Shown in pieces: positions 35,520-52,366 of a stretch of 64,000 nt of DNA. The stretch comes from Mytilus californianus. Taxonomy: Eukaryota. A model generated the notes under the pieces. That model ran no database searches, had not been told where the DNA came from, and worked only from the letters and a program-made list of their open reading frames with translations. The translations under genes and the position numbers were made by a program. Positions within the stretch are counted from its first letter, which is position 1, and the number at the start of each line of letters is the position of its first letter. The stretch covers positions 2,852,001-2,916,000 of the forward strand of contig NW_026262674.1 of assembly GCF_021869535.1 (NCBI RefSeq), read 5' to 3'.

Positions 35520-35541
35520 ATGGACATAATGACGGCTAAAG
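35520..35541 (+). CDS. Candidate first coding exon (MDIMTAK-G)
   Basis: aatcATG; phase-1 donor g|gtagta (weak); joins in frame to give the signal-peptide-like MDIMTAKGLIIATIFFAWITPS. Confidence 0.45.
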
Positions 35542-50500: not shown

Positions 50501-52366
50501 ACGTTATATTGCTGGATCTTCCGAGTGCTATAAGAAACTTCTTTCTAATTTATTAACATCAATTTTATCAGCAATTAAAGCCGGGCTTTAAAGTTATTTT
50601 GATGTGAAACTACCTGTTCTAGAGGCGGCTTTAATCAGCTGTGGATACTCAAAAATTCGACAGATCTGTTATAATACATACAATCTAAGATTCTTTCATC
50701 TTGCAACAGTATTAAAGCATTTGACGTTTCTACACTTTACACAATTATTCCCCATTCCAAAGTAAAAGACTAATTGAAAGAGTTGGTCCTGCTTTGTTTC
50801 ATAAAAAAAGAATGGCCAACGTAGATACAAGTATCTTGTCTTAGGGAGTGATAAATCGTACTTTGTAAAAACTAACTCTGATCAAACAAAATATTCTCTG
50901 AAACTGACATTATCAAGATACTTGATTTCTTGATTGACAACATATTTGTTACGTCTAGAGGACGTGTTTTTCAACAAACAATCGGAATTCCATTGGGAAC
51001 CGATAGTTCCTCTTCTTGTCGACTTGTTCCTTTATTCCATGGCGTTATTAGTTTATTTTCGACTTATGAGTTTTTATGTCCCTTTAGTATCTTTTGCCTC
51101 TCTCTCAAAAATGTAATGTACTTCCTAAATGATCAAATATTTTTTACAGAGACTGGACAGTTTTACTTGATGCGTGACAAAGGTCTTCTTAGTTTCATGT
51201 CAACATTTAAATTACAATTATCCTCGCCTAAAGTTAAATGGTTAGTTATATTCAACCCAGAGATTGGACTGTGTCAGAACATTTCGATATACAATACTTC
51301 ACAAGAAATAAATATTCCGACAGAATTCAAAGTCAACAGAAATGAAATTGAAAACAAAGGAATTCATATAATTACATCAAGCAAAACTGATTTAAATGCT
51401 ATATACAAGGACCCAAGCACCAGTGAAGGCCTTTTTATTTTCCCATTAGAAAAGCTGTCTACAACATATATCGCTCCGTCTTTCACTCCCGCCACTGGAG
51501 AATCGTTTATTGGTATCGTTGCAACAAAACCAAACACAGAAGTGAATATAACACTGAAACTACCTAACACTGACAAAATAACTTTTAATAATACAAAGTA
51601 TGGAAATGGAGAAACAATTTCCGTTCATTTAGGAGAAAGGGGGACCCTTGAACTGTCAAGCCAAACTGATCTCACTGGAACAATTATCCAGGCGAACAAA
51701 GATATAGGAGTGCAGTCTGGGGTTGACGCTGCAAAAGTACCTGTAAATAGTGGTTTGATGAATCAGTTATTAGAAATGGTACCGCCAGTTAACGAACTAG
51801 GAAAGTCATTTTTCATACCACCATTATTTGAAAACAAAGAATTTATATTACGTTTAATCGCTGCGCATCCAAATACAACAATTACTCTTCTTGGAATAAA
51901 TTCTAAACAAGCCACCGTTGTGGTAGACCAAATAGGGGATCACATAGATATCCATAGCAACGCCTCTATAAAAGTACAATCTGACAAACCAGTAATGGCA
52001 GTTTATTATCAACAAGGAGAAACTAAACCAGTCGTACCTTTTATGGTTATTATTAAACCAGAAGGCAAACTTGGAGGAGTTCAAGAGTTTACCATTCCTG
52101 ATGACGGGTTAAGACATCATATTCTTATTACCGCTAAGAGTACTGAATACCCCTTTCTTCAGATTGACGGGAAAGGTGTTATTTATAGAAATCCTCATGT
52201 GTACGATACACAGAGTTTAAATTCCACATATGTTGTTGCAAGGGCGGACATTGGCACAGGACATCATACCATAAGTTCGTCATACCCGATTCTTATGAAA
52301 GTCAAACCTGGAATTATCATCTATGCCGATTCCGACAAGGACATTGCTTATGGTTATCCTGTGTAA
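35520..52366 (+). CDS. Secreted mosaic protein, ~1126 aa: signal peptide, Ly6/uPAR domain, ShK-like domains, Thr/Glu mucin-like stalk, IgGFc-binding domain. join(35520-35541,37489-37542,39325-39401,40077-40157,42738-42861,45233-46057,47002-47130,47581-47694,48108-48338,49586-50092,51150-52366)
   Basis: Every exon is bounded by AG/GT, and the phases chain without frameshift (1,1,0,0,1,1,1,1,1,1) to a total of 3381 nt, i.e. 1127 codons. The first exon is the least certain. Confidence 0.85.
37034..37119. repeat. Perfect 43-bp tandem duplication
   Basis: tgttatttgttcaatcgactaacattacatgcattatcagact at 37034 and 37077. Confidence 0.95.
37489..37542 (+). CDS. Exon: signal-peptide hydrophobic core GLIIATIFFAWITPSEER
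   Basis: tttttgcag acceptor, gtaaat donor, phase 1-1. Confidence 0.75.
37665..37830. repeat. Degenerate ~30-bp minisatellite (ttgttacaaccaatgagttt), 5-6 copies, intronic
   Basis: Repeated gttacaac(c/t)aatgagttt core. Confidence 0.8.
39325..39401 (+). CDS. Exon: Ly6/uPAR domain part 1 GLFCYTCFKAKNPDLCHADTQCELEK
   Basis: gcag acceptor, gtaaca donor, CxxC start typical of LU domains. Confidence 0.85.
40077..40157 (+). CDS. Exon: Ly6/uPAR domain part 2 NDQLCGTRRYRDIHGSTSYEKGCVPKL
   Basis: Poly-T cag acceptor, gtgagt donor, phase 0-0. Confidence 0.85.
40850..41030. repeat. Degenerate ~72-bp tandem repeat, ~2.5 copies
   Basis: tgtcctggttacttt...ttgtgctg...atatagacatg recurs. Confidence 0.7.
42738..42861 (+). 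CDS. Exon: Ly6/uPAR domain part 3 MCPNSRTIDQFSPVGRRRRQTEDVIQCCDTDYCNKDHFKS
   Basis: ttttatcag acceptor, gtatgg donor. The CCxxxxCN motif completes a 10-Cys LU domain. This frame is not listed in the ORF track. Confidence 0.88.
43790..44075 (+). mobile_element. Degenerate 3' fragment of a CR1/L2-type LINE ORF2
   Basis: Decayed ...MEDY...RINDHN...LGRYKTIRRKHRTCK...DDEEHF resembles the C-terminal CCHC region of CR1/L2-type ORF2 proteins. Confidence 0.55.
45233..46057 (+). CDS. Exon: three full and one partial ShK-like domains with Ser/Thr linkers
   Basis: Six-Cys modules ending C-x3-C-x2-C (CRHFCGRC, CPKTCKRC, CHLTCGYC); attttag acceptor, gtaagt donor. Confidence 0.92.
46590..46870 (+). mobile_element. 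Penelope-like retroelement fragment (RT C-terminal region), intronic
   Basis: Decayed NFPFLCSNISAAHAYGVDISK*IRYSRACVFYRDFLDR. Confidence 0.7.
47002..47130 (+). CDS. Exon: ShK-like domain
   Basis: CADLDGLTHYCQYEPRDVVCYDEQSVIKSQCYATCGHC; phase 1-1; gtgagt donor. Confidence 0.9.
47581..47694 (+). CDS. Exon: ShK-like domain (alternative in-frame acceptor at 47548)
   Basis: CKDNDTQHYCKQINIDVDCFNEQHIITSGCYSTCHRC; gtgaga donor; absent from the ORF track. Confidence 0.85.
48108..48338 (+). CDS. Exon: linker plus ShK-like domain
   Basis: CLDHENQNMQYCRLLDKNIVCQNELYIKSYGCFSTCSRC; poly-T ccag acceptor, gtaaga donor. Confidence 0.9.
49059..49320 (-). mobile_element. Full-length tRNA-derived SINE with a V-domain-like core and 11-bp TSD
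   Basis: Minus-strand head ggggcctcggtggccgagtgg (A box) ... gagttcgaaccc (B box); core ggttttctccgggcactccggcttcctcc; (aatca)n-like tail; TSD tcatagtttga at 49048-49058 and 49322-49332. A degraded copy lies at ~36155-36275. Confidence 0.9.
49586..50092 (+). CDS. Exon: Thr/Glu-rich mucin-like stalk with (TTEEVS)n 18-bp repeats
   Basis: ORF 49558-50163 trimmed to the cgtag acceptor and the gtgagg donor; phase 1-1. Confidence 0.88.
50300..51030 (+). mobile_element. Penelope-like retroelement reverse-transcriptase fragment, intronic and degenerate
   Basis: LPSLYWIPKLHK...QRYIAGS; FDVSTLYTIIPH; KKNGQRRYKYLVLG; FLIDNIFVT..GRVFQQTIGIPLGT, with stops and frameshifts. Confidence 0.88.
51150..52366 (+). 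CDS. Terminal exon: IgGFc-binding (FCGBP N-terminal-like) domain
   Basis: Motifs FIGIVATKPNTEVNI, DLTGTIIQANKDIGVQSG, LLEMVPPVNELGKSFFIPP, RLIAAHPNTTI, SDKPVMAVYY, PFMVII and terminal AYGYPV*; ttttacag acceptor. Confidence 0.88.

What the first reader, a model, noticed from the sequence alone, without database searches (positions are those of the whole stretch)
35520..52366. Unusual secreted mosaic: Ly6/uPAR, ShK-like x6-7, acidic mucin stalk, C-terminal IgGFc-binding domain
Seen: a phase-consistent 11-exon model. Established: LU (three-finger) and ShK folds are both toxin-like, ligand-binding scaffolds, and the IgGFc-binding domain is N-terminal in vertebrate FCGBP, a mucus protein. Here it is C-terminal, and no transmembrane or GPI tail is evident. 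Inference: a mucus- or matrix-anchored scaffold displaying toxin-like modules for mucosal defence. I know of no functional characterisation of this architecture.
Basis: partly seen in the sequence, partly recalled or inferred. Interest (0 to 1): 0.72.

Follow-up and report, generated by a model that had tools for sequence, protein, structure and literature searches.

The report
Mussel three-finger/ShK mucin with FCGBP tail
This mussel gene is real and is spliced as one message in a close relative; it encodes a likely secreted, mucus-coat protein whose three-finger head carries a hormone-style cutting signal, its layout is shared with scallop, and its toxin-like modules lack the classic channel-blocking residue pair.

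Summary
The 11-exon gene at 35520-52366 is real. It gives a 1137-aa frame without stops. RNA-type contigs of a related mussel show 9 of 10 junctions, and RefSeq orthologs exist in M. edulis and M. galloprovincialis. Layout: signal peptide, 10-Cys LU domain, seven ShK/SXC-like modules (six complete, one lacking its C1-C6 pair), an acidic Thr stalk and a C-terminal FCGBP_N domain (Pfam 2e-45). One correction: the exon-8 start lies in a repeat; the native acceptor and 65 coding bases are missing from this assembly. The layout is not unique. Scallop has the same order with two ShK modules, and 14 of 82 FCGBP_N-like exons in this genome have an LU motif just upstream (0.05 expected). The toxin-display idea is weak: 0 of 7 modules have a Lys/Arg-aromatic pair. 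The new point is a conserved hydrophobic-Gly-dibasic signal in LU loop III (25 of 74 LU tails; about 3 by chance), which predicts a nicked, possibly amidated, disulfide-held head. Best reading: a secreted mucin-like coat protein working like nematode ShK-mucins. Function is untested.

The parts
35520..35541 (+). Exon 1, start of signal peptide (a second in-frame Met at 35529 matches the ortholog start)
   Evidence: orthologs; joint not among rows shown
37489..37542 (+). Exon 2, rest of signal peptide
   Evidence: hydropathy peak 1.63 at residue 1
39325..39401 (+). Exon 3, LU domain part 1 (C29, C32, C41, C47)
   Evidence: Toxin_TOLIP E 0.029
40077..40157 (+). Exon 4, LU domain part 2 (C56, C74)
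42738..42861 (+). Exon 5, LU domain part 3 (C80, C106, C107, C112-Asn)
   Evidence: Activin_recp E 5.8e-4
42780..42797 (+). Gly plus five Arg in LU loop III: predicted convertase site with amide-donor Gly
45233..46057 (+). Exon 6: ShK-like modules 1 (45271-45384), 2 (45418-45519), 3 (45637-45717, four Cys) and 4 (45949-46056), with Ser/Thr-rich linkers
47002..47130 (+). Exon 7, ShK-like module 5
   Evidence: (ShK E 0.013)
47157..47575 (.). Dispersed repeat filling intron 7 and abutting the remnant of exon 8; native acceptor and 65 coding bases absent
47577..47694 (+). Native remnant of exon 8, ShK-like module 6; cryptic in-frame acceptors at 47500, 47548, 47557, 47560, 47581 and 47590, use unknown
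48108..48338 (+). Exon 9, linker and ShK-like module 7
49586..50092 (+). Exon 10, acidic Thr/Ser stalk (48% S+T, 25% D+E, net -38; 18-bp coding repeat at 49792-49931) ending near C726
51150..52366 (+). Exon 11, FCGBP_N / IgGFc_binding domain and stop
   Evidence: Pfam 2e-45; all-beta model, pLDDT 95.5

Best explanation
This single spliced mussel gene encodes a likely secreted mucin-like glycoprotein that probably works as a component of the mucus or surface coat, with a C-terminal FCGBP_N domain as its likely non-covalent anchor and a three-finger head that is predicted to be cut during secretion. Shown: gene structure, domain order, conservation in scallop, a multigene family in this genome, and the conserved Gly-dibasic signal. 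Inferred steps: (1) the signal peptide sends it through the secretory pathway; (2) a furin-type convertase cuts the Arg run in LU loop III, the halves stay joined by the C80-C106 bond, and trimming plus amidating enzymes may turn the Gly into a C-terminal amide; (3) the Thr/Ser stalk and linkers are O-glycosylated and form an extended acidic spacer; (4) the ShK/SXC modules act as compact disulfide beads, as in nematode coat mucins, not as channel blockers; (5) the all-beta FCGBP_N domain binds mucus glycans, matrix or a cell surface and holds the processed head out to meet microbes, particles or host receptors. All 52 cysteines can be assigned to intrachain pairs, so it is unlikely to form a covalent gel on its own.
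For: One frame and RNA-type joints; RefSeq orthologs XP_071139346.1 and XP_076080987.1, 80% identical in FCGBP_N and 88-89% in LU. Scallop XP_021361487.1 has the same order and a Gly-Arg-Arg-Lys-Arg loop; its FCGBP_N falls in one starred clade with the window gene in a quick tree (SH-aLRT 96, 9 rows). Gly-dibasic in 25 of 74 open-frame LU tails against a shuffled mean of 2.95 (max 9 in 2000 shuffles), and in at least one LU of 6 of 6 paralog neighbourhoods read. Module 3 lacks exactly C1 and C6, which are a bonded pair in ShK (connectivity from PMC6409789). [quoted passage not shown]
Against: No tissue, proteomic or binding data exist for this gene in my calls. The one raw RNA run (X21, about 6% read) had zero depth on the bins holding exons 6 and 11. 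Most oyster 'IgGFc-binding' proteins in PMC6337334 are labelled zonadhesin-like and may lack FCGBP_N, so that precedent is loose. FCGBP_N has no known ligand (PMC11796319), and the fold search gave no functional homolog (best Z 8.7, to an uncharacterised Thermotoga protein). The LU/ShK model was unusable (pLDDT 39). The stalk is short (158 aa) and Pro-poor (1%). Absence of the dyad does not exclude channel activity (PMC6409789).
Confidence: 0.55

Rival explanations
1. Tethered signalling or recognition molecule: the nicked, amidated LU head is the working part, acting as a ligand trap (the fold of TGF-beta/BMP receptor ectodomains) or as a peptide-like ligand for a receptor; stalk and FCGBP_N only position it.
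For: LU (88-89%) and module 4 (97-100%) are more conserved than FCGBP_N (80%). The residue before the Gly is Phe, Val, Ile or Leu in 21 of 25 cases (read), as in amidated peptides. LU exon 5 passes the Activin_recp cut-off. The top weak Foldseek rows are BMP receptor ectodomains (E 0.16 or worse).
Against: The structural hits come from a pLDDT-39 model and are not significant. 49 of 74 LU tails lack the Gly-dibasic motif. No receptor or ligand is known.
Confidence: 0.17
2. Structural protein of shell, periostracum, byssus or adhesive matrix: the acidic stalk binds calcium and FCGBP_N joins the matrix.
For: Stalk net charge -38 and whole protein -53. Proteins annotated as IgGFc-binding are proposed in the oyster larval adhesive (PMC6337334).
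Against: The acidity is Glu within Thr-Thr-Glu-Glu repeats, typical of glycosylated spacers rather than Asp-rich mineral proteins (own knowledge). No shell or byssus proteome was checked for this gene.
Confidence: 0.14
3. One reading: a mucus-anchored scaffold that displays toxin-like LU and ShK modules to block ion channels or kill microbes or parasites.
For: Both folds occur in toxins. The module profile also hits the nematode peptides Acan1 and AcK1 weakly (E 0.17 and 0.38); Acan1 blocks Kv1.3 at 829 nM (PMC8239465). Some dyad-less ShKT domains still modulate channels (PMC6409789).
Against: 0 of 7 modules have a Lys/Arg-aromatic pair between C3 and C4; net charges are -4 to 0 except the degenerate module 3 (+4); the only furin-type sites are in the LU loop. 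Modules are 68-100% conserved between species, with no sign of fast turnover relative to the rest of the protein. A limpet mucus ShKT was judged non-toxic on the same grounds (PMC7333891).
Confidence: 0.11
4. The model joins two genes, or the copy in this genome is a pseudogene.
For: No listed contig spans the whole gene, and the exon 10-11 link rests on a 17-nt loose end. Exon 8 is damaged in this assembly. Two public models at this locus are chimeric (P0002, P0008).
Against: One contig joins exons 2-10; two RefSeq models and a scallop protein span the whole layout. Exons 7-10 are all phase 1, so skipping exon 8 or using 6 of the 9 nearby AG sites keeps the frame. There are no stops or frameshifts elsewhere.
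Confidence: 0.03

Closest known systems
Uncharacterised bivalve orthologs: M. edulis XP_071139346.1 ('serine-rich adhesin for platelets-like'), M. galloprovincialis XP_076080987.1, scallop Mizuhopecten yessoensis XP_021361487.1
   Same: Signal peptide, LU with Gly-polybasic loop, ShK-like modules, Thr stalk, C-terminal FCGBP_N
   Different: Scallop has 2 modules rather than 7 and about 27-30% identity. Mytilus orthologs keep a 22-aa, 2-Cys start of exon 8 that the window lacks. All are automatic annotations without function.
Nematode ShKT/SXC mucins (Toxocara Tc-MUC-1 to -5; C. elegans PHAT proteins)
   Same: Signal peptide, tandem six-Cys ShKT modules and Ser/Thr-rich tracts; they form a surface coat or line a lumen (PMC3611597, PMC2563036). 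Best functional analogue.
   Different: They are 176-316 aa (Tc-MUC) and have no LU or FCGBP_N domain; no homology beyond the ShKT module was shown.
Vertebrate FCGBP and other FCGBP_N (PF17517) proteins
   Same: Shares the PF17517 domain and secretion; mucus association is known for FCGBP
   Different: FCGBP has the domain at the N-terminus followed by many VWD-C8-TIL units (PMC4948705); here it is last and there is no VWD. IgG binding by FCGBP itself is disputed (PMC11796319).
Molluscan multidomain LU proteins (LU+C1q, LU+fibrinogen, LU+MAM, LU+Ig; PMC13719153, in silico)
   Same: Secreted LU domain fused to an extracellular partner domain
   Different: LU+FCGBP_N, ShK modules and a convertase site are not mentioned in that paper's main text; its figures and supplements were not readable.
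Sea-anemone ShK toxin and snake three-finger toxins
   Same: Cysteine frameworks
   Different: Those are small free peptides; ShK needs a Lys-Tyr dyad that is absent here, and the modules here sit inside a 1137-aa chain.

Membership tests
FCGBP_N / IgGFc_binding domain (PF17517) | Profile match above Pfam cut-off over the full model | tested here: met
   155.8 bits vs cut-off 25.6, profile 4-291 of 297; Atlas 0.94
Vertebrate-type FCGBP | N-terminal FCGBP_N followed by VWD-C8-TIL repeats | tested here: not met
   Domain is C-terminal; no VWD, C8 or TIL hit in the exons scanned or in the whole orthologs
Vertebrate-type FCGBP | Binding of IgG Fc or mucins | not testable with these tools
   No binding assay; molluscs have no IgG (own knowledge)
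ShKT/SXC domain (PF01549) | Six Cys ending C-x3-C-x2-C | tested here: met
   6 of 7 modules; module 3 has four
ShKT/SXC domain (PF01549) | Profile-level similarity to ShKT domains | tested here: inconclusive
   Below Pfam cut-off (14.8 and 16.4 vs 20.9 bits); own profile finds 4 PDB sequences, best a ShTK-domain protein at E 4.8e-4; hhalign to P0050 only 15.9%
ShKT/SXC domain (PF01549) | C1-C6, C2-C4, C3-C5 disulfides and two-helix fold | tested here: inconclusive
   Model pLDDT 39; joint loss of C1 and C6 in module 3 fits indirectly
ShK-type K+ channel toxins | Lys-Tyr dyad between C3 and C4 | tested here: not met
   0 of 7 modules with an adjacent Lys/Arg-aromatic pair; Lys-aliphatic variants were not scored
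ShK-type K+ channel toxins | Channel block | not testable with these tools
   Needs electrophysiology
LU (Ly6/uPAR, three-finger) domain | Ten Cys from C-x2-C to CC-x4-CN | tested here: met
   C29-C112, Asn113; aligned in scallop, ark clam and oyster
LU (Ly6/uPAR, three-finger) domain | Profile or fold match | tested here: inconclusive
   Exon 5 passes Activin_recp, but whole P0001 gave no LU hit; scallop Toxin_TOLIP 9.8e-4, below cut-off; Atlas at most 0.83; Foldseek E 0.16 or worse
GPI-anchored Ly6 proteins / TGF-beta receptors | C-terminal GPI signal, or TM helix plus kinase | tested here: not met
   Highest internal 19-residue hydropathy 1.28; the chain ends in the folded FCGBP_N domain; no dedicated GPI predictor was run
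Gel-forming mucins | VWD assemblies, long PTS domain, cystine knot, free Cys for polymerisation | tested here: not met
   No such Pfam hits; stalk 158 aa with 1% Pro; 52 Cys all assignable to intrachain pairs (pairing inferred)
Nematode SXC mucins (works-like comparison) | Signal peptide, several ShK modules, Ser/Thr tracts | tested here: met
   against the definition quoted in PMC2563036; O-glycosylation itself not tested

The most novel reading that the evidence does not exclude
Bivalves have a family of split three-finger domains: loop III is cut by a prohormone-type convertase and C-terminally amidated while a disulfide keeps the halves together. This would create a neuropeptide-like hydrophobic-amide tip on a rigid scaffold, displayed on a mucin stalk and anchored in mucus by FCGBP_N, as a mucosal signalling or recognition device conserved from scallops to mussels.
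Probability: 0.2. Interest if true: 0.75.

Novelty: new variant of a known kind. Interest (0 to 1): 0.45.

Why it matters
The function of FCGBP_N is unknown even in the human mucus protein FCGBP, and its N-terminal position was proposed to be critical (PMC4948705). A conserved bivalve family with the domain at the C-terminus argues against that rule and offers a compact, well-modelled single-exon domain for ligand screens. The Gly-dibasic signal inside a three-finger loop makes a sharp prediction that mass spectrometry of mussel mucus can test. The toxin-display reading, which drove the first score, is the weakest part.

Tried and rejected
(1) LU+ShK structure: AlphaFold on a 9-row alignment gave pLDDT 39 and Foldseek had no hit at E 0.001 or better; no verdict. 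(2) FCGBP_N fold: no PDB sequence hit, no Foldseek hit at E 0.001 or better, VIA best Z 8.7 (1nc7, 101 aligned, rmsd 3.7) and then generic beta-sandwiches; residues past about 295 were barely tested. Glycan binding is neither shown nor excluded. (3) Word-indexed searches with the LU-ShK region found only P0001 and P0002 (2 of 56 candidates) or only P0016 (1 of 86); the search is insensitive, so this is not evidence of rarity. (4) A recalled link between ovipostatin and this domain was dropped: ovipostatin is 167 aa with no stated resemblance, and no paper held both terms. (5) The missing exon-8 start was sought in the window by tblastn and not found. (6) No listed holder run is on record as RNA; no evidence either way. 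(7) An LU-FCGBP_N complex prediction was not obtained, so head-to-tail binding is untested. (8) The careful tree did not finish; only the quick tree is quoted. LU-linked rows need 8 changes on it, so LU+FCGBP_N is not one clade. (9) The 7-module profile found no ShK-like exon below E 0.1 in six paralog neighbourhoods; a pattern scan found one real module, in the C89 paralog, and one stray match in C13.
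Full report
Gene structure. Reading 34000-54000, I built an 11-exon GT-AG model from ATG 35520 to TAA 52366. It translates to 1137 aa without internal stops; phases after exons 1-10 are 1, 1, 0, 0, 1, 1, 1, 1, 1, 1. Contigs of three runs from a related organism (X1-X3; RNA is the tool's guess; about 3-10% different on exons) show GT-AG joints for exons 2-3, 3-4, 4-5, 5-6, 6-7, 8-9 and 9-10, plus an exon 7-8 joint at 47577. A 1992-nt contig carries exons 2 to 10, and a 17-nt loose end at 50092 is the start of exon 11 (184 further joint rows were not shown). 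The exon 1-2 joint was not among the rows shown. No listed contig spans the whole gene. The raw RNA run X21 (about 6% read) had zero depth on the bins holding exons 6 and 11. RefSeq holds 1111-aa orthologs in M. edulis and M. galloprovincialis, so the window is from a Mytilus-type mussel.

Exon 8 is damaged in this assembly. Orthologs start exon 8 with about 22 residues, including two Cys, that the window lacks, and the X1 contig has 65 unmatched bases at this place (computed from the record positions). In the window, 47157-47240 and 47427-47575 match a repeat found elsewhere in the window at 70-82% identity, and the missing piece is not found in the window. In a DNA-type run close to the window (X20, 3 differences in 687 on exon 11), a contig aligns from 47577 with 143 unmatched bases before it; a difference row for X18 implies that its aligned piece also starts at 47577. 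I infer a deletion specific to this haplotype or assembly; I could not see those letters and do not know whether X18 or X20 are the window's species. The frame probably survives, because 6 of 9 nearby AG sites are in frame and skipping the phase 1-1 exon also keeps it.

Domains. Exon 11 is IgGFc_binding/FCGBP_N (2e-45). It models as an all-beta unit with pLDDT 95.5 and has no clear solved relative. Residues 29-113 have the ten-Cys LU pattern; profile and fold support is weak but consistent, with no LU hit on the whole ortholog. Seven modules follow. Six have six Cys ending C-x3-C-x2-C, and module 3 lacks C1 and C6, which are a bonded pair in ShK (PMC6409789, passages). They fall below the Pfam cut-off, but their joint profile finds 4 of 177,635 PDB sequences, the best a ShTK-domain protein at 4.8e-4. 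The stalk (aa 565-722) is 48% Ser+Thr and 25% Asp+Glu. There are 16 N-glycosylation sequons and no hydrophobic anchor. The 52 Cys divide as 10 + 36 + 4 + 2; the last two (C726, C774) have counterparts in scallop, so I infer no free Cys.

How unusual is it? Among the best 150 of 3492 representatives, FCGBP_N is alone in 63, N-terminal in 44, C-terminal in 13 and middle or repeated in 30 ('alone' may include single-exon fragments). Scallop XP_021361487.1 has signal peptide, LU, two ShK-like modules, Thr stalk and C-terminal FCGBP_N. Ark clam and Saccostrea proteins have two LU domains, a stalk and FCGBP_N; an unnamed protein has ShK repeats and FCGBP_N. In the window's genome there are 82 FCGBP_N-like matches. 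A strict LU-tail pattern gave 96 hits against 39 for the control. 14 of the 82 have such a hit within 20 kb upstream on the same strand (two share one hit), 1 downstream and 0 on the opposite strand, with 0.05 expected. The closest paralog (C89, 55-56%) has two LU tails, a stalk and one ShK-like module. A quick tree puts the window gene, both Mytilus orthologs, this paralog and the scallop gene in one starred clade of 9 rows that also holds three unlabelled FCGBP_N-only rows. PMC4948705 (passages; Fig. S5 not seen) says FCGBP_N is typically N-terminal and suggests this is critical; these genes are counter-examples.

The cutting signal. LU loop III, between C80 and C106, holds Val-Gly followed by five Arg, the only furin-type site in the protein. 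The Gly and one basic residue are nearly invariant across 12 aligned relatives. Of 96 pattern hits examined, 22 were dropped as not in an open frame of at least 12 residues. 25 of the remaining 74 have Gly-[KR]-[KR] within 25 residues before the CC (shuffled mean 2.95, max 9 of 2000), and Gly precedes the first dibasic pair in 25 of 37. The 25 include tandem near-copies, and the 74 include some chance hits. 21 of the 25 have Phe, Val, Ile or Leu before the Gly (read by eye). Gly-dibasic is the classic cleavage-plus-amidation signal (own knowledge). Because C80-C106 would bridge the cut (standard LU connectivity, own knowledge), the prediction is a two-chain LU head. Nothing here shows that cleavage or amidation happens.

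Mechanism and rivals. The best reading is a secreted mucin-like coat protein (0.55), by analogy with Toxocara ShKT mucins (PMC3611597, passages) and C. elegans PHAT-5 (PMC2563036, passages). Bivalve 'IgGFc-binding' proteins are reported in mucus and proposed in larval adhesive (PMC6337334, passages), though most of those are labelled zonadhesin-like. Rivals are a tethered signalling or ligand-trap head (0.17), a shell, byssus or matrix role (0.14), toxin display (0.11) and a two-gene or pseudogene artefact (0.03). Against toxin display: 0 of 7 modules have a Lys/Arg-aromatic pair, 6 of 7 are neutral or acidic, and there are no furin-type release sites. The dyad-less Nak1 barely blocks Kv1.3 (PMC8239465, passages), and a limpet mucus ShKT was read the same way (PMC7333891, passages). 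For it: dyad-less domains can still modulate channels (PMC6409789).

Literature. Ten searches were run: IgGFc-binding+Mytilus (11 papers); FCGBP+N-terminal domain+gliding motility (2); ShKT+mucin+bivalve (1); Ly6+uPAR+Mytilus (0); ShKT/dyad/Kv1.3/SXC (15); IgGFc-binding protein+pallial mucus (0); ovipostatin or IgGFc (608); three-finger/bivalve/Ly6/amidation/dibasic (52); ovipostatin+Fc-binding (0); Toxocara mucin ShK (48). I saw listings for most papers and passages for those cited; PMC11796319 and PMC2853560 were also seen as passages. For PMC13719153 I read the abstract and the whole Results section. It lists molluscan LU fusions with C1q, fibrinogen, MAM and Ig but not FCGBP_N or ShK; its figures and supplements were unreadable. 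None of what I saw describes this architecture or the loop-III signal, but subscription journals are largely missing from the library.

Verdict. This is a new variant of known kinds (FCGBP_N proteins, multidomain LU proteins, ShK mucins), conserved between mussels and scallop and expanded in this genome, with one sharp testable feature. Interest 0.45.

Noticed in passing
window 20901-22856 (+): Intronless 651-aa open frame for a RING/B-box/coiled-coil TRIM-like protein, lying between minus-strand ankyrin (ASB3-like) exons at 28163-28071 and 16953-16771, so apparently nested in an intron on the opposite strand.
   Followed up: partly
window 13311-28163 (-) versus P0008 and P0002: Two public models fuse neighbours to this gene: P0002 (M. 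edulis) with the TRIM-like gene and P0008 (M. galloprovincialis) with the ASB3-like exons. The latter lie on the opposite strand in the window, which suggests a local inversion between the genomes.
   Followed up: partly
window 13813-15206 (-): A 138-bp x 10 tandem repeat with a 371-aa open frame (46-aa units); a similar repeat frame is part of P0008. Coding status unclear.
   Followed up: no
window 6179-12762 and 28751-30491: Large satellites: 36 bp x 181 and 82 bp x 21.
   Followed up: no
G000:C89, about 10791600-10792110 (L017): In the closest paralog the first LU loop III is expanded by a 15-residue repeat rich in Arg-Arg sites, like a peptide-precursor cassette inside a three-finger loop.
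   Followed up: no
G000, one search list: At least 82 FCGBP_N-like exons, many in clusters (C24, C57, C121, C154, C165) and several with stops: a large birth-and-death family.
   Followed up: partly
P0060 (Crassostrea 'fibrillin'): An oyster protein annotated as fibrillin has an ShK-like six-Cys stretch, 17 EGF repeats and a C-terminal FCGBP_N domain.
   Followed up: no
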